Shown one piece after another: positions 13,933-16,584 of a stretch of DNA of 33,672 bases. Both the position numbers and the translations under genes were made by a program. The first letter of the stretch is position 1. The number at the start of each line of letters is the position of its first letter. The DNA lies in UHGV virus genome UHGV-2170543; one strand, written 5' to 3'. The notes under the pieces were generated by a model that was not told the DNA's origin, did no database searches, and worked only from the letters and a program-made list of their open reading frames with translations. Source of the stretch: a virus.

Positions 13933-14870
13933 CCCCTGAATCCTTCCGGGATCTGGCTGTAGTCCACGTTGTCGTAACTGGCTTTGAAGTACGGGTCTTC
14001 ACGTTTTTCTGTGTGCGTGCTGACGGACGGCGATAAGCGCAGGGAAAGCTCATCCCATTTTTCCCGCAACTTCGACGGGCTGAGCACGTTACGGCACCAG
14101 AACGGATCACGGCTGACGCGGCTGTACATCTCGCAGATTTGTTTGTGAGTACGACCATCCTGCACACACATCAGGCGAATTTCGTTTGCCCATGCTGTCC
14201 AGTTCGGTTCTTTGGGACGAACCACCTCGCCGTCACATTCGGCGGCCTGCTCGTACAGGGCGATGATTTTTTTCCAGAGCCACTGTGCGCAGGTCAAATC
14301 ATCCTGCGTTCCCCACTGGCGCTTTTTAGGGCTGAATACAACCGCATCAGGATGGCGAGTTAAAAAATCCTGTTCAGCCGTCTGCGTGTCCGGTTGCAAA
14401 GCGTCCGGACGAGAAGGTTTTTTATCTGACGGATCATGTTTTGATTTTACTGACGGATCCCCGCCAGATTCTGACGGGTGAAAACACGCTTTTTTGCCAG
14501 ATTTCGACGCATCAAATTTTGACGGGTCAGATTTTGATGCGTCAGATTTTGACGGGTCAGAATCTGACAGTTGAGAAAATGCCGCAGCCTGAAGCTTCGC
14601 AACGTTAAGCTGATAAACATTCGACGCATTGCGGTTACCCTGGCGACGCGCCTTACGCGTTAACCAGCCTTCTGCTTCCAGCCGTGCGATAGCCGTTCTG
14701 ACGGTACTCATCCCCGCGCCAATCTGGCGGGCAATGGTTTCAATTGATGGCCAGCACACACCCTCGTCATTACTGAAATCAGCCAGACGGGCCATAATTG
14801 CCACACTGGATAATTTCATGCCTGACGCTGCGCAACCATCCCATACATAGCCGGTTAATTTGGTGCTCAC
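13929..14870 (-). CDS. replication initiator (O-like) with internal iteron-bearing linker
   Basis: N-terminal HTH (SSVAIMARLADFSNDEGVCWPSIETIARQIGAGMSTVRTAIARLEAEGWL); repetitive SDSDPSKSDASKSDPSKFDASKSG linker encoded by DNA iterons. Confidence 0.6.
   Translation of the reverse strand: MSTKLTGYVWDGCAASGMKLSSVAIMARLADFSNDEGVCWPSIETIARQIGAGMSTVRTAIARLEAEGWLTRKARRQGNRNASNVYQLNVAKLQAAAFSQLSDSDPSKSDASKSDPSKFDASKSGKKACFHPSESGGDPSVKSKHDPSDKKPSRPDALQPDTQTAEQDFLTRHPDAVVFSPKKRQWGTQDDLTCAQWLWKKIIALYEQAAECDGEVVRPKEPNWTAWANEIRLMCVQDGRTHKQICEMYSRVSRDPFWCRNVLSPSKLREKWDELSLRLSPSVSTHTEKREDPYFKASYDNVDYSQIPEGFRG
14420..14575. repeat. origin-like iterons (at least 5 copies of TYTGACGGRTC-like 12-mer) inside O-like gene
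   Basis: Plus-strand repeats ATCTGACGGATC, TACTGACGGATC, TTCTGACGGGTG, TTTTGACGGGTC x2 plus degenerate TTTTGATGCGTC, spaced about 23-32 bp. Confidence 0.5.
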
Positions 14871-15748
14871 TTACGCACCTCCTTATGCTTTTCGTTCAGT
14901 TCCGAGTCCACCAGCCCGGCAACGAATACACCATCGTTGATGTAGTCGTAGAGCGATGAAGCCAGCGGAGACTGAACTGAAACCAGCATCGGATAAAGTT
15001 GTTCTAACCAAACGCGGTGAATTTCAGCCATGTAGAGGTAAACAACGTGGGCATTGTGCGCGACACATGAAGTATCAACCTTTCCGATCAGCGCCTGTTC
15101 CATCTGGTTAAAGGCATTGATGTATGCCTCTTTGAACCGGGCAGCACGTTTACCCGTGAAACCCATAGCAAGAAACGCAAAACCGTCTCGTGTGATTTGA
15201 TAGCAAAGGAGCTTGCGTGTACCACCGTTCGGTTGATTTACCGAAATCGATGTCTCCGCAAAATTGCGGGCACAAAACTCAGGGGAACAATCCAGAGTGC
15301 GGATCTTTTTCAGCACATCGTCGTGACGCTTGGAGAAGAAGTTGGCAACAGCCAAAGAAGTGGTAACGGCCTGGCCGTTGTCAATGGTGATTTCAGGTTG
15401 AGTGAGGGCTGGGATCGTAGCCATGATGGCAGCCTCCGTTGACAGTGAAAAACTTCCACCACCGGAAACGCCAATTTCACTGGTGGTGAACTGGACGGGG
15501 TTGGCGTAACCGGCGTCAACGGAGACCGGCGCACCTTTCGGTGCCCCCGCCCAGCCCACCATAATCTGGATGTGAGCAAATGCGGACGATAAAAAAGACG
15601 CTGGCGCGTCATACATCGCCGTTGACAATTTCAGGACGCCAATCCCGGCACCCGCTTTATAAGGTGCCTGAACAGTGTAACGTCCCGGAATTGCAGAATC
15701 AATATGCTGGTGGCGATTGGTAAACAGTTTGAAAATATTCCGGATCAT
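14867..15748 (-). CDS. Rha-domain phage regulatory protein, paralog A
   Basis: QAVTTSLAVANFFSKRHDDVLKKIRTL and YQITRDGFAFLAMGFTGKRAARFKEAYINAFNQME (Rha family); N-terminal SAIPGRYTVQAPYKAGAGIGVLK shared with paralog B. Confidence 0.65.
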   Translation of the reverse strand: MIRNIFKLFTNRHQHIDSAIPGRYTVQAPYKAGAGIGVLKLSTAMYDAPASFLSSAFAHIQIMVGWAGAPKGAPVSVDAGYANPVQFTTSEIGVSGGGSFSLSTEAAIMATIPALTQPEITIDNGQAVTTSLAVANFFSKRHDDVLKKIRTLDCSPEFCARNFAETSISVNQPNGGTRKLLCYQITRDGFAFLAMGFTGKRAARFKEAYINAFNQMEQALIGKVDTSCVAHNAHVVYLYMAEIHRVWLEQLYPMLVSVQSPLASSLYDYINDGVFVAGLVDSELNEKHKEVRK

Positions 15749-16584
15749 TTACGCCCCCTTACCTCTGAAGGATTCAGCGACAAATTTATGAGGCAGGCCA
15801 GCGCCGAAGCATCATTAATATAGTCATACAAGCTAACAGCCAGCGGAGATTCGGCTTTTGCCAACATAGGATAAAGCTGCTGCAGCCAGACCTGATGAAT
15901 TGATGAAATGTAGGAATAGAGAACGCTGGCGTTATGTGCAACGTCGCTCAGTACAGAGGGATTTGAAAGCTGTTTCTCCATCTGGTTAAAGGCATTGATG
16001 TATGCCTCTTTGAACCGGGCAGCACGTTTCCCCGTGAAGCCCATGGCAAGAAACGCAAAACCGTCGCGGGTGATTTGGTAACAAGGGAGTTTGCGGCCTG
16101 TGCAATCGGTGTAATCACTGGGCTGAAAATTCAGCTCAGTGAATTCAACAGAGCACTCAAGCGTCTGGATTTTTTGAATAACGTTTTTGTGCTGCTTGCA
16201 GAAATATTCGGCAACGGCCAAAGAAGAGGTAACAGCCTTCCCATGGATAACATCAATTTTAGGGTGAGTTTGGGTAGGGGTGGTTGCCATAGTGACATCC
16301 TCATGTGCGAATTTTGAAAACTCACCACATGGGACGCCAATCACAGAGGTGGTGAGACGTACAGGGTTGGCGTAACCGGTCGCACATGACCCCGGCGCAT
16401 CTTTCGATGCCCCTGCACGCCCCACCATAATTTGGATGTGAGGAAACGTGCGCAAAAAAACCGCTGAAGCGCGGTTATGCGCATGTGCGAATTTCAGGAC
16501 GCCAATCCCGGCACCCGCTTTATAAGGTGCCTGAACAGTGTAACGTCCCGGAATGGCAGAATCAATCATTACTGGTTTGCTCAT
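15745..16584 (-). CDS. Rha-domain phage regulatory protein, paralog B
   Basis: KAVTSSLAVAEYFCKQHKNVIQKIQTL and YQITRDGFAFLAMGFTGKRAARFKEAYINAFNQME; tandem to paralog A. Confidence 0.65.
   Translation of the reverse strand: MSKPVMIDSAIPGRYTVQAPYKAGAGIGVLKFAHAHNRASAVFLRTFPHIQIMVGRAGASKDAPGSCATGYANPVRLTTSVIGVPCGEFSKFAHEDVTMATTPTQTHPKIDVIHGKAVTSSLAVAEYFCKQHKNVIQKIQTLECSVEFTELNFQPSDYTDCTGRKLPCYQITRDGFAFLAMGFTGKRAARFKEAYINAFNQMEKQLSNPSVLSDVAHNASVLYSYISSIHQVWLQQLYPMLAKAESPLAVSLYDYINDASALACLINLSLNPSEVRGRK

What the first reader, a model, noticed from the sequence alone, without database searches (positions are those of the whole stretch)
14867..16584. Tandem Rha-domain paralogs with near-identical ends and divergent middles
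Two adjacent genes encode 293-aa and 279-aa proteins sharing almost identical N-terminal (SAIPGRYTVQAPYKAGAGIGVLK) and Rha-core (YQITRDGFAFLAMGFTGKRAARFKEAYINAFNQME) segments, including near-identical DNA stretches, but different central regions. This is the signature of a recent duplication followed by diversification or gene conversion in a regulatory protein of the early-right operon.
Basis: seen in the sequence. Interest (0 to 1): 0.35.

Follow-up and report, generated by a model that had tools for sequence, protein, structure and literature searches.

The report
Two tandem RNA-gated Rha regulator modules
The two "Rha paralogs" are two copies of a known prophage switch in which small antisense RNAs (IsrK-like and C4-like) sit in front of a Rha regulator gene; the shared "N-terminal protein segment" is really those RNA genes, and the two copies carry different RNA address codes.

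Summary
The two minus-strand ORFs (14867-15748, 293 aa; 15745-16584, 279 aa) and their DNA repeats are real. Their first ~100 codons, however, are two Rfam-recognised RNA genes per copy: an IsrK-like leader with an intrinsic terminator, then a C4 antisense RNA. These lie upstream of a 181/185-aa Rha CDS that has its own Shine-Dalgarno and ATG (16290, 15424). Across 20 distinct homologous leaders, the C4 loops a'/b' co-vary with an upstream (a1/b1) and a downstream (a2) target, 98-99% paired. b2 was checked only by longest-run pairing. a2 overlaps the Rha ribosome-binding site. Variable leader sites show no codon-position bias (50/51/51), unlike the Rha CDS (80/68/147). The two copies share b but have different a codes. 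Cognate a':a2 duplexes are -16 and -19 kcal/mol; non-cognate are -7 and -10. The architecture matches Gifsy-1 isrK-orf45-anrP, P1 c4-ant and P4 seqA-CI. The tandem is not a recent in-place duplication. Each unit occurs alone elsewhere at 99-100% identity. The same prophage backbone exists with 0, 1 or 2 modules, and a 36-nt scar of a foreign gene marks the junction. About 7.5% of sampled loci hold arrays of 2-3 modules, always of different types. This is a new member of a known kind, with an annotation lesson: Pfam "Ash" appears to be translated RNA.

The parts
16537..16565 (-). Unit 1 putative promoter: -35 TTGATT (16560-16565), 17-nt spacer, -10 TACACT (16537-16542). The IsrK-like RNA starts 7 nt downstream at 16530.
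   Evidence: Read from the sequence. It has the same geometry as the isrK promoter of Gifsy-1 (TTGACA-18-TATATT; promoter function shown in PMC4825925). It is conserved in all aligned leaders. It scores 8/12, below the 9/12 threshold of the consensus scan, so one search did not list it.
16454..16530 (-). Unit 1 IsrK-like leader RNA. It holds the b1 target in a hairpin loop (16499-16505 TTGGCGT), the a1 target (16482-16490 TCGCACATG) and an intrinsic terminator (16454-16476, hairpin plus U7).
   Evidence: Rfam isrK RF01394, 62.3 bits (gathering score 50). The overlapping c4-a1b1 hit is below threshold (21.6 vs 46.7). Terminator found. a1:a' and b1:b' covariation.
16345..16432 (-). Unit 1 C4-type antisense RNA. 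Loop a' is 16380-16389 (TCATGTGCGA); single-stranded b' is 16367-16373 (ACGCCAA). The AUG equivalent to the Gifsy-1 orf45 start is at 16426-16428.
   Evidence: Rfam C4 RF01695, 75.1 bits (gathering score 45). MFE fold -46.5 kcal/mol with the expected outer stem. Stem covariation.
16298..16340 (-). Unit 1 downstream targets: b2 (16334-16340 TTGGCGT) and a2 (16301-16310 TCGCACATGA). a2 overlaps the Shine-Dalgarno GAGGA (16298-16302), which lies 7 nt before the Rha1 ATG.
   Evidence: a':a2 helix of 10 pairs, 7 co-varying, 98.5% paired. Duplex -16.1 kcal/mol cognate vs -6.9 with the unit 2 a'.
15745..16290 (-). Rha1 coding sequence as re-defined here: 181 aa, starting MATTPTQ. It has a Phage_pRha domain plus a unit-specific C-terminal third.
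   Evidence: Pfam PF09669 1e-32; TIGR02681. Third-position excess of variable sites, 80/68/147. Other genomes annotate the homologous CDS from this start.
15713..15748 (-). Junction scar between the units: ATGATCCGGAATATTTTCAAACTGTTTACCAATC. This matches the first 12 codons of the small ORF that follows Rha1 in single-module prophages, with 1 mismatch. Its ATG (15748) abuts the Rha1 stop (TAAATG) and is the start of the 293-aa ORF.
   Evidence: The same scar is present in arrays of other module types (L053, L055).
15674..15702 (-). Unit 2 putative promoter: TTGATT (15697-15702), 17-nt spacer, TACACT (15674-15679).
   Evidence: Apart from one spacer base it is identical to the unit 1 promoter.
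15591..15667 (-). Unit 2 IsrK-like leader RNA: b1 15636-15642 (TTGGCGT), a1 15619-15626 (GTCAACGG), terminator 15591-15610 (hairpin plus U6).
   Evidence: Rfam isrK, 62.2 bits. Terminator. Covariation.
15479..15566 (-). Unit 2 C4-type antisense RNA: a' 15515-15524 (CTCCGTTGAC), b' 15501-15507 (ACGCCAA), orf45-equivalent AUG 15560-15562.
   Evidence: Rfam C4, 81.4 bits. MFE -52.2 kcal/mol.
15433..15474 (-). Unit 2 downstream targets: b2 15468-15474 and a2 15434-15443 (GTCAACGGAG), which covers the Shine-Dalgarno GGAGG (15433-15437) 8 nt before the Rha2 ATG.
   Evidence: Duplex -18.9 kcal/mol cognate vs -9.8 with the unit 1 a'.
14867..15424 (-). Rha2 coding sequence as re-defined here: 185 aa, starting MATIPALTQ. 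Its stop overlaps the GTG start of the O-like replication gene.
   Evidence: Pfam PF09669 3.4e-27. It occurs as the only module, at 99.9% identity, in the same prophage backbone in strain AR_0013.
15977..16095 (-). Conserved Rha-core DNA patch of unit 1. Its partner in unit 2 is 15099-15217; the two are 92% identical over 119 nt.
   Evidence: repeat family D2. Third-position identity is 73-93% here vs 27-47% in the flanks. The 3' edge (15099) is a mosaic breakpoint in dozens of genomes.

Best explanation
The region holds two complete, tandem copies of an immI/IsrK-type RNA-gated regulator module on the minus strand.

Anatomy of each module:
- its own sigma-70-like promoter;
- an IsrK-like leader carrying target sequences a1 and b1 and ending in an intrinsic terminator;
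- a C4-type structured antisense RNA displaying the loops a' and b';
- a second target copy, b2 and a2, with a2 lying on the Shine-Dalgarno of the gene;
- a Rha-domain gene of 181 or 185 aa.

Proposed working:
1. Most transcripts stop at the terminator and yield a short IsrK-like sRNA.
2. Read-through transcripts carry the C4 element and the Rha mRNA.
3. The a'/b' loops, acting in cis or in trans after processing, pair with a2/b2 and hide the ribosome-binding site, so Rha is off.
4. The short leader RNA carries the same targets (a1/b1) and competes for a'/b', which switches Rha translation on.
5. Rha then acts as an antirepressor-like or transcriptional regulator that pushes the prophage, or a neighbouring one, towards lytic growth.

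The two modules share the b code but have different a codes, so each RNA is matched mainly to its own gene.

The 279- and 293-aa ORFs are over-extended readings through the RNA genes. The array was built by recombination that joined two pre-existing modules, not by recent duplication.

Status of each step. Shown here: the RNA family matches, the covariation of all pairings, the overlap with the Shine-Dalgarno, the absence of a coding signature in the leader, the copy-number series and the junction scar. Inferred by homology with P1 c4 and Gifsy-1 IsrK: the direction of regulation, RNA processing, and the decoy or activator role of the short RNA. Weakest inference: what Rha does.
For: RNA family matches. 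Both copies score above the Rfam gathering score for C4 (81.4 and 75.1 bits vs 45) and for isrK (62.2 and 62.3 bits vs 50).

Covariation on 20 distinct leaders.
- a1:a': 9 pairs, 7 with changes on both sides, 99.4% paired.
- b1:b': 7 pairs, 5 co-varying, 98.6% paired.
- a':a2: 10 pairs, 7 co-varying, 98.5% paired.
- The C4 stems co-vary as well.
- Controls with partners slid by 1-3 columns pair at only about 40%.

Broader sample. In 108 parsed modules, every cognate a' pairs with at least 10 contiguous bases of a2, and every b' pairs with 7 bases of b2.

Coding signature. Variable leader sites by codon position are 50/51/51. In a larger set they are 22/24/20 and 27/28/26, p = 0.83 and 0.96. 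The Rha CDS gives 80/68/147, p = 1e-8.

Other sequence features. Terminators lie inside the long ORFs. The putative promoter sits in the same position as the Gifsy-1 isrK promoter. a2 overlaps the Shine-Dalgarno.

Specificity. Cognate a':a2 duplexes are -16.1 and -18.9 kcal/mol; non-cognate are -6.9 and -9.8; b is identical in both units at -10.3.

Gifsy-1 comparison. The locus has the same order, isrK then C4 then payload. Mutational data show that isrK G28/G31 pair with positions 162/159, which is the b1:b' helix, and that short IsrK activates payload translation (PMC4825925).

Origin of the array.
- The backbone exists with 1 module and with 0.
- Unit 1 occurs alone at 99-100% protein identity.
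- A junction scar is present.

Payload. Rha1, Rha2 and AnrP all hit the antirepressor profiles phrog_373 and phrog_63 over the same profile region.
Against: There is no expression data for this locus.

The leader frame is open and in phase with the Rha ATG in 112 of 113 modules, and all leader indels are multiples of 3 or sum to one. Some translation of the leader cannot be excluded. In Gifsy-1 the homologous orf45 is translated.

Pfam Phage_ASH matches the leader translation above its threshold, and RefSeq annotates the long ORFs as proteins.

The c4-a1b1 Rfam model scores below its gathering score here (21.6 vs 46.7).

The shared b code could allow cross-talk between the two modules.

Rha has no demonstrated antirepressor activity. 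AnrP is not detectably similar to Rha by BLASTP.

The P1 model (C4 represses) and the Gifsy-1 model (IsrK activates, C4-like RNA role unresolved) are combined here by inference.
Confidence: 0.82

Rival explanations
1. The 279- and 293-aa ORFs are genuine two-domain (Ash + Rha) proteins. A recent tandem duplication was followed by divergence of the middle, with gene conversion keeping the ends alike.
For: Both ORFs are open. Pfam Phage_ASH scores 1e-20 and 8e-15 on their N-terminal parts. RefSeq annotates them at full length. phrog_821 covers leader plus Rha. The leader frame is open in all modules examined.
Against: The leader shows no codon-position bias, whereas the Rha part shows a strong one.

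The leader's conservation is fully accounted for by RNA helices and by three-site covariation.

Intrinsic terminators and a promoter lie inside the supposed N-terminal domains.

The module's own transcription start lies downstream of both long-ORF ATGs.

The Ash model also matches the old P4 'cI protein' exactly over the CI/C4 RNA. That RNA is reported to arise from an untranslated transcript (PMC4825925, its refs 45-47).

Each unit has 99-100% identical single-copy relatives, and a junction scar is present. This argues against in-place divergence.
Confidence: 0.05
2. A dual-use leader. The RNA modules are as described, but ribosomes also translate part of the leader. They would start at the AUG at the 5' end of the C4 element (16428, 15562; the Gifsy-1 orf45 start) or at the ATG that abuts the upstream stop (15748). 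Because the frame is fused, this would give Rha isoforms extended by 46 aa or more. Alternatively, the act of translation itself opens the a2/Shine-Dalgarno structure or overrides the internal terminators on pR transcripts.
For: The orf45-equivalent AUG is conserved and in frame with the payload ATG in 112 of 113 modules, at a distance of 138 or 141 nt.

Indels are 3 nt, 27 nt, or net to a multiple of 3.

In Gifsy-1, orf45 is translated and is needed for anrP translation, and its amino-acid sequence is not conserved.

The Rha1 stop and the next ATG form TAAATG, a typical arrangement for translational coupling.
Against: No Shine-Dalgarno is visible before the upstream AUG.

The C4 region is also open in a second frame (ORF 16341-16484). 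A shuffled leader is open in a given frame 3.4% of the time. Together with shared ancestry, this makes an open frame weak evidence.

In Gifsy-1 the uORF ends at the payload start (AUGA) and an in-frame stop precedes it. Fusion is therefore not a general feature of the family.
Confidence: 0.3
3. The second copy is a decaying or redundant duplicate with no separate function. The different a codes would then be drift rather than separate addressing.
For: Arrays are a minority: 9 of 120 sampled loci. By my estimate from the type frequencies, two randomly drawn modules differ in type about 90% of the time. 'Always different' across about a dozen pairs is therefore not statistically significant. The b code is shared.
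Against: Both units are intact in every element: promoter, terminator, C4 fold, Shine-Dalgarno and full-length Rha CDS.

In each unit, a1, a' and a2 match one another perfectly, which drift would not preserve.

The same A+B array is conserved at up to 100% identity in at least 11 complete genomes.

The two Rha C-terminal thirds differ strongly, which is consistent with different targets.
Confidence: 0.12
4. Assembly artefact: a repeat expanded in this assembly.
Against: The units are only 75% identical. The same tandem is present at 100% identity in a complete genome and in 13 records in all. It is also present in independent IMG/VR contigs L002-L004, L006, L012, L140 and L200.
Confidence: 0.01

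Closest known systems
Gifsy-1 isrK-orf45(STnc1160)-anrP locus of Salmonella (Hershko-Shalev et al. 2016, PMC4825925)
   Same: The order of elements is the same, and both RNA parts match the same Rfam models. A promoter lies in the same position. The leader sRNA ends in an intrinsic terminator. A C4-like RNA begins with the conserved AUUAUGG. b1 (UUGGCG), b' (CGCCAA) and b2 are identical to those of the window. a2 lies on the payload's Shine-Dalgarno. The payload N-domains are distantly related: both hit phrog_373 and phrog_63.
   Different: The payload is AnrP with an ORF6N domain, not Rha; BLASTP gives E = 13. In Gifsy-1, orf45 stops on the anrP start (AUGA) and is preceded by an in-frame stop; here the equivalent frame runs straight into Rha. 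The Gifsy-1 locus is single-copy and lies downstream of the Q-like antQ gene. Here there are two copies between the cII-like/DUF4222 genes and the replication gene O.
immI operon of phages P1/P7: c4 antisense RNA - icd - ant1/ant2. Mechanism from Citron & Schuster 1990 and Heinrich et al. 1995 (my own knowledge), summarised in PMC12197685.
   Same: A C4-family RNA with loops a' and b' is transcribed from the same promoter as its target. Complementary a1/b1 lie upstream and a2/b2 cover the ribosome-binding site. Small differences in the loops give heteroimmunity between P1 and P7, just as the a codes differ between the two units here.
   Different: There is no icd gene here: the target Shine-Dalgarno belongs directly to the regulator gene. 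The payload is a Rha protein rather than P1 Ant. The host is a lambdoid prophage. There are two modules in tandem.
P4 immunity region seqA - CI RNA - seqC
   Same: P4 nt 8615-8692 match isrK/c4-a1b1 and nt 8420-8507 match C4, in the same order. The historical P4 'cI protein' CDS matches Pfam Phage_ASH, as the window's leader translations do.
   Different: In P4 the RNA causes premature transcription termination of the replication operon (PMC4825925 discussion) rather than gating an antirepressor-type gene.
Rha family phage regulatory proteins (PF09669 / TIGR02681)
   Same: Both re-defined CDSs are clear members, with E 1e-32 and 3e-27.
   Different: The family name implies no defined mechanism. 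The C-terminal ~75 aa are unit-specific and match no Pfam family and no solved structure by sequence.

Membership tests
C4 antisense RNA (Rfam RF01695; P1/P7 c4, P4 CI) | Covariance-model score above the curated gathering score | tested here: met
   81.4 and 75.1 bits vs 45; full-length matches 1-87.
C4 antisense RNA (Rfam RF01695; P1/P7 c4, P4 CI) | Long outer stem enclosing two hairpins, supported by compensatory changes | tested here: met
   Outer helix of 17 pairs, 99.7% paired, 4 pairs changed on both sides. Hairpin 1 has 4 of 5 pairs co-varying. Slid controls pair at about 40%. The MFE fold reproduces the outer stem.
C4 antisense RNA (Rfam RF01695; P1/P7 c4, P4 CI) | Loops a' and b' complementary to a2/b2 at the ribosome-binding site of the downstream gene | tested here: met
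   a':a2 has 10 pairs, 7 co-varying, 98.5% paired. b':b2 is 7 of 7 in all 108 parsed modules. a2 overlaps GAGGA/GGAGG.
C4 antisense RNA (Rfam RF01695; P1/P7 c4, P4 CI) | A second target copy, a1/b1, upstream of the RNA | tested here: met
   a1:a' has 9 pairs (7 co-varying) and b1:b' has 7 pairs (5 co-varying). The Rfam c4-a1b1 model itself scores below threshold (21.6 vs 46.7).
C4 antisense RNA (Rfam RF01695; P1/P7 c4, P4 CI) | Stable ~77-nt RNA released by RNase P processing; acts as a repressor | not testable with these tools
   Needs Northern blots or RNA-seq and genetics. Only the conserved 3' CACCACC tail is visible in the sequence.
P1-type immI operon (c4-icd-ant) | icd reading frame between c4 and ant; Ant-type payload | tested here: not met
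   No separate ORF lies between C4 and the payload, and the payload is Rha. Other E. coli loci do have Icd-like genes after C4 (H12 and H25).
IsrK locus (Rfam RF01394; Gifsy-1) | isrK model score above gathering score, ending in an intrinsic terminator | tested here: met
   62.3 and 62.2 bits vs 50. Hairpin plus U7/U6.
IsrK locus (Rfam RF01394; Gifsy-1) | Dedicated promoter immediately upstream of the sRNA start | tested here: inconclusive
   TTGATT-17-TACACT lies 7 nt before the model start, matching the Gifsy-1 geometry. It scores only 8/12 to consensus and was not reported by the scan. Activity was not tested.
IsrK locus (Rfam RF01394; Gifsy-1) | Upstream ORF (orf45) starting at the C4 5' AUG and ending on the payload start (AUGA) for translational coupling | tested here: not met
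   The AUG is conserved, but the frame is fused in phase with the payload (46 codons, no stop) in 112 of 113 modules.
Rha family (PF09669 / TIGR02681) | Domain HMM above the curated cut-off | tested here: met
   113 and 95.3 bits vs 29.9. 116.1 and 84.5 bits vs 45.95.
Ash protein family (PF10554) | HMM score above the cut-off | tested here: met
   74.5 and 55.6 bits vs 26 on the long ORFs.
Ash protein family (PF10554) | The matched region behaves as protein-coding sequence | tested here: not met
   Variable sites show no third-position excess. The region is two Rfam RNAs. The same HMM matches P4's obsolete 'cI protein' over the CI RNA.
Recent tandem gene duplication | Copies closer to each other than to any single-copy relative; low synonymous divergence | tested here: not met
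   The two units are 75% identical, against 99-100% identity to single-copy relatives. Third-position identity outside the conserved patches is 20-60%. A junction scar is present.

The most novel reading that the evidence does not exclude
Arrays of two or three IsrK/C4-gated regulator modules, each with its own two-part RNA address (about 11 a codes and 5 b codes, about 20 combinations seen), may form a combinatorial addressing system. A prophage could use it to control several antirepressor-like Rha proteins independently. Through trans-acting RNAs of matching code, it could also talk to, or be immune to, other prophages in polylysogenic E. coli.

The b1, a1, a', b', b2 and a2 sites are interleaved, yet a and b codes reassort. 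This would imply repeated concerted three-site switches under diversifying selection.

The leader frame, always open but unconstrained at the amino-acid level, would serve translation-coupled opening of the switch, or read-through of the internal terminators on early-operon transcripts.
Probability: 0.2. Interest if true: 0.6.

Novelty: new member of a known kind. Interest (0 to 1): 0.36.

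Why it matters
1. Annotation. The 279- and 293-aa 'Rha family' proteins in RefSeq appear to be, at least in large part, translations of non-coding RNA genes. The same applies to the thousands of 'ash family protein' calls, to Pfam PF10554 and to the N-terminal half of phrog_821. That distorts protein family databases and hides a regulatory switch. A match to unit 2 (leader, Rha CDS or part of either) is found in at least 1,591 of 5,426 complete E. coli genomes.

2. Biology. The IsrK/C4 switch was characterised in P1, P4 and Gifsy-1. The data here show that it is a portable cassette. It occurs with many mutually exclusive RNA address codes, is coupled to different payloads, and can be stacked in arrays inside the early operon of lambdoid, including Stx-type, prophages. 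These features bear on how induction and prophage-prophage cross-talk are wired.

3. Evolution. The locus shows module shuffling at conserved sequence patches rather than duplication followed by divergence.

Tried and rejected
- The consensus promoter scan found nothing upstream of either unit. The candidate promoter matches only 8/12 and was found by homology with Gifsy-1.
It was replaced by a single-motif scan and parsing in Python.
- MAFFT misplaced the 3-nt gap at b2 and put the two terminator types in different registers. The terminator helix therefore scores only 63% paired, and b2 could not be counted with the column-based tool. b2 was checked instead by longest-run pairing. The non-cognate b2 control there is noisy.
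- 'Arrays always combine different types' is not significant. By my estimate from the type frequencies, random pairs differ about 90% of the time, so the observed result has roughly a 0.3 probability by chance.
- BLASTP of Gifsy-1 AnrP against Rha1 shows no similarity. The relation appears only through shared PHROG profiles.
- Rha1 has no solved-structure relative by sequence.
- Structure prediction and the large protein-database searches were not run. They would not decide between antirepressor and DNA-binding regulator, and the main conclusion does not depend on them.
- Literature searches for 'ash family protein' and for CI RNA/seqA found no paper stating that the Ash family is translated RNA. 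I cannot say whether this is already recognised elsewhere.
- An open reading frame through the leader was considered as evidence for translation. It was judged weak, because a second frame is also open over C4 and shuffled leaders are open 3.4% of the time.

Full report
**1. The observation**

On the minus strand there are two adjacent ORFs: 15745-16584 (279 aa, upstream) and 14867-15748 (293 aa, downstream). They align at 60% amino-acid identity, E 3e-113. The DNA contains three co-linear direct repeats spaced about 866 nt apart:
- 113 nt at 85%;
- 138 nt at 75%;
- 119 nt at 92%.

Overall the units are 75% identical over 615 nt. The first 76 nt of the shared block differ at only 2 positions. 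Both ORFs contain a Phage_pRha domain.

So the repeat is real and far beyond chance. The description 'near-identical ends' is not accurate. The conserved blocks are the 5' part and the middle, while the 3' thirds are divergent.

**2. What the 'N-terminal domain' really is**

A scan of the window against Rfam found two RNA genes on the same strand, inside the first ~100 codons of each ORF.
- An isrK match: 16454-16530 and 15591-15667, at 62.3 and 62.2 bits (gathering score 50).
- A C4 antisense RNA match: 16345-16432 and 15479-15566, at 75.1 and 81.4 bits (gathering score 45).

Each isrK match ends in a hairpin followed by U7 or U6, and the terminator scan found both. Just upstream of each lies TTGATT-17 nt-TACACT, placed 7 nt before the first base of the RNA model. 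This is the same geometry as the promoter of the experimentally studied isrK gene of Gifsy-1, TTGACA-18-TATATT.

Downstream of each C4 element, a Shine-Dalgarno (GAGGA or GGAGG) precedes an ATG by 7-8 nt, at 16290 and 15424. That ATG opens a 181- or 185-aa protein which on its own is a full Rha-family member.

**3. RNA or protein?**

Pfam does have a family, Phage_ASH (PF10554), that matches the leader translations. RefSeq annotates the long ORFs as proteins in the identical genome NZ_AP045810.1. The protein reading therefore had to be tested.

I collected 80 loci encoding Rha1 relatives from IMG/VR. I also collected an unselected sample of 120 stretches carrying the leader's 5' motif.

(a) Covariation, on 20 distinct leaders (alignment A1):

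| Helix | Pairs | Pairs changed on both sides | Cells paired |
|---|---|---|---|
| C4 outer stem | 17 | 4 | 99.7% |
| C4 hairpin 1 | 5 | 4 | 100% |
| a1 with a' (long range) | 9 | 7 | 99.4% |
| b1 with b' (long range) | 7 | 5 | 98.6% |
| a' with a2 | 10 | 7 | 98.5% |

Structures with partners slid by 1-3 columns pair at only about 40%. In 108 parsed modules of the unselected sample, every a' pairs with at least 10 contiguous bases of its own a2, and every b' pairs with 7 bases of its own b2.

(b) Codon-position test. Variable columns in the leader fall evenly on codon positions 1/2/3:
- 50/51/51 in the first set;
- 22/24/20 upstream of the internal AUG and 27/28/26 after it in the larger set, p = 0.83 and 0.96.

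The Rha CDS of the same loci gives 80/68/147, p = 1e-8.

(c) The Ash model. The Ash HMM also matches the obsolete 'cI gene product' CDS of phage P4, exactly over the Rfam C4 hit. The P4 immunity factor is reported to be the CI RNA, processed from an untranslated transcript (PMC4825925, discussion, its refs 45-47).

Conclusion: the conservation of the leader is explained by RNA. The 'Ash domain' is best regarded as translated RNA.

**4. A caveat I could not remove**

The leader frame is open and in phase with the payload ATG in 112 of 113 modules. The distance from the AUG at the 5' end of C4 to the payload ATG is 138 or 141 nt. Every leader indel seen is 3 nt, or nets to a multiple of 3.

That AUG (16428; 15562) is the start codon of orf45 in Gifsy-1. 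There orf45 is translated, is needed for translation of the downstream gene, and is conserved as nucleotides but not as amino acids. In Gifsy-1 the uORF stops on the payload start (AUGA), and an in-frame stop precedes it. In the E. coli subfamily it runs straight into Rha.

Ribosomes may therefore read part of the leader, giving a +46-aa isoform or simply opening the structure. The evidence is weak. The C4 region is also open in a second frame. A shuffled leader is open in a given frame 3.4% of the time. The modules also share ancestry. I list this as a rival or complement at about 0.3.

**5. How it most likely works**

The anatomy is the same as in three studied systems.
- P1/P7. The C4 RNA, made from the same promoter as its target, pairs through a' and b' with a2/b2 at the ribosome-binding site and blocks antirepressor synthesis. 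Loop differences give P1/P7 heteroimmunity (summarised in PMC12197685; details from my own knowledge of Citron & Schuster 1990).
- Gifsy-1. Most transcripts stop at the IsrK terminator. Read-through RNA is translationally silent. Short IsrK acts in trans on the long RNA and switches translation on. The mutational pairs G28/C162 and G31/C159 are precisely the b1:b' helix counted here.
- P4. The homologous CI RNA acts on seqA and seqC.

By homology, each window unit is off when a'/b' occupy a2/b2 over the Rha Shine-Dalgarno. It turns on when the short leader RNA, which carries a1/b1, competes for a'/b'. The pairings and their position are shown here. The direction of regulation, the processing and the role of the short RNA are inferred.

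**6. The two units are differently addressed**

| | Unit 1 | Unit 2 |
|---|---|---|
| a' | UCAUGUGCGA | CUCCGUUGAC |
| a1 | UCGCACAUG | GUCAACGG |
| a2 | UCGCACAUGA | GUCAACGGAG |
| b elements | identical in both units | identical in both units |

Predicted duplexes of the a' loop with the downstream target are -16.1 and -18.9 kcal/mol for cognate pairs. They are -6.9 and -9.8 for non-cognate pairs. The b' duplex is -10.3 in all cases. The modules are thus separated by the a code only, and some cross-talk through b is possible.

The sample contains about 11 a' and 5 b' variants in about 20 combinations. For example, one a' occurs with four different b'. This is notable because the six sites are interleaved along the RNA in the order b1, a1, a', b', b2, a2.

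**7. Payload**

Both proteins have an N-terminal Phage_pRha domain and a unit-specific C-terminal third. The Gifsy-1 payload AnrP (ORF6N domain) is not similar by BLASTP. Even so, Rha1, Rha2 and AnrP all match the antirepressor profiles phrog_373 and phrog_63 over the same profile region.

In Gifsy-1, AnrP expression induces the prophage. An antirepressor-like or regulatory role for Rha1 and Rha2 is therefore a reasonable inference, but it is the weakest one. No solved structure is related by sequence.

**8. Origin of the tandem**

It is not a recent in-place duplication.
- Third-position identity between the units is 20-60% outside the conserved patches.
- Unit 1 occurs alone at 99-100% protein identity in many contigs.
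- Unit 2 occurs alone at 99.9% identity in strain AR_0013. That prophage has proteins identical to those of NZ_AP045810.1 (which matches window 3862-23189 at 99.1%) for CI, Cro, YmfL, DUF4222 and O.
- A related backbone has DUF4222 directly followed by O, with no module at all.
- The 36 nt after the Rha1 stop match the first 12 codons of the small ORF that follows Rha1 in single-module phages, with 1 mismatch. The sequence then switches to the unit 2 promoter region. The same scar occurs in arrays made of other module types (L053, L055).

The Rha core patch (codons 76-105; 15099-15217 and 15977-16095) is conserved at synonymous sites too. Its 3' edge is where dozens of genomes switch to a different C-terminal part. 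It therefore acts as a recombination junction.

**9. How common are arrays?**

Of 120 unselected IMG/VR stretches, 111 have one module, 8 have two and 1 has three (L101). Within every array the modules differ in a' or b'. Given the type frequencies, I estimate that this difference is not statistically significant on its own. A further array, with a short Rha payload, is in E. coli R12.

The exact A+B array of the window covers at least 80% of the query in 13 records from 11 complete genomes. This also disposes of the assembly-artefact alternative.

**10. Verdict**

The feature is real but was mis-read. It is a pair of IsrK/C4-type RNA-gated Rha modules: a new member of a known kind.

It differs from the characterised systems in three respects:
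- stacking in arrays with different a codes;
- an upstream reading frame fused to the payload;
- a Rha payload placed inside the early-right operon.

The practical lesson concerns annotation. The long 'Rha' ORFs, the 'ash family proteins' and PF10554 are probably translated RNA.

Noticed in passing
L205 (phage P4) 8168-8584(-), 8420-8507(-), 8615-8692(-); window 16291-16584 and 15425-15748: Pfam PF10554 (Phage_ASH), RefSeq 'ash family protein' and the N-terminal half of phrog_821 match conceptual translations of the isrK/seqA plus C4/CI RNA region. This includes P4's obsolete 'cI protein' CDS. The family looks like a spurious, RNA-derived protein family.
   Followed up: partly
window 7071-7660 (-) and 29745-31144 (+); also 3744-4325 vs 32943-33538: There are two inverted, 87-90% identical copies of a lambdoid late-region start. 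Each has tRNA Met-Arg-Arg plus STnc100 (one copy on the minus side, two on the plus side). An AsxR-like sRNA lies at 7071-7123(+). The window matches the mlrA-integrated prophage of NZ_AP045810.1 only from 3862 to 23189. It therefore seems to span parts of two prophages facing each other.
   Followed up: partly
window 24746-24917 (+): A sok antitoxin RNA (hok/sok-type toxin-antitoxin) scores 106.7 bits, in the part of the window that differs from NZ_AP045810.1.
   Followed up: no
window 14498-14572 (inside the O-like gene 13929-14870, minus strand): Four 15-nt iterons (CAGATTTTGACGGGT-like) with inverted-repeat symmetry. This is presumably the replication origin inside the initiator gene, as in lambda.
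   Followed up: no
L101 (IMG/VR 2671181028_000005), minus strand, module starts at 1440, 2096, 2752: A triple array of IsrK/C4 modules spaced 656 nt apart. All three a' and all three b' codes are different.
   Followed up: partly
L049:2264-2503: One leader carries three separate 1-nt deletions plus a 3-nt deletion relative to its closest relative. One deletion is in a1, one next to b' and one in the C4 outer stem. They net to a multiple of 3 and leave the frame open. This could be sequencing error or compensated frameshifts.
   Followed up: partly
L083 (E. coli R12) 666-2992: Another phage context holds a leaderless Rha-family gene followed by two IsrK/C4 modules. The first module's payload is a 112-aa Rha-domain-only protein that RefSeq fuses with its leader as a 220-aa 'ash family protein'.
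   Followed up: partly
window 15099-15217 and 15977-16095: The Rha-core DNA is conserved at synonymous sites across module types, beyond what the protein requires. It serves as a mosaic junction. Whether an additional nucleic-acid-level constraint exists there is unexplained.
   Followed up: partly
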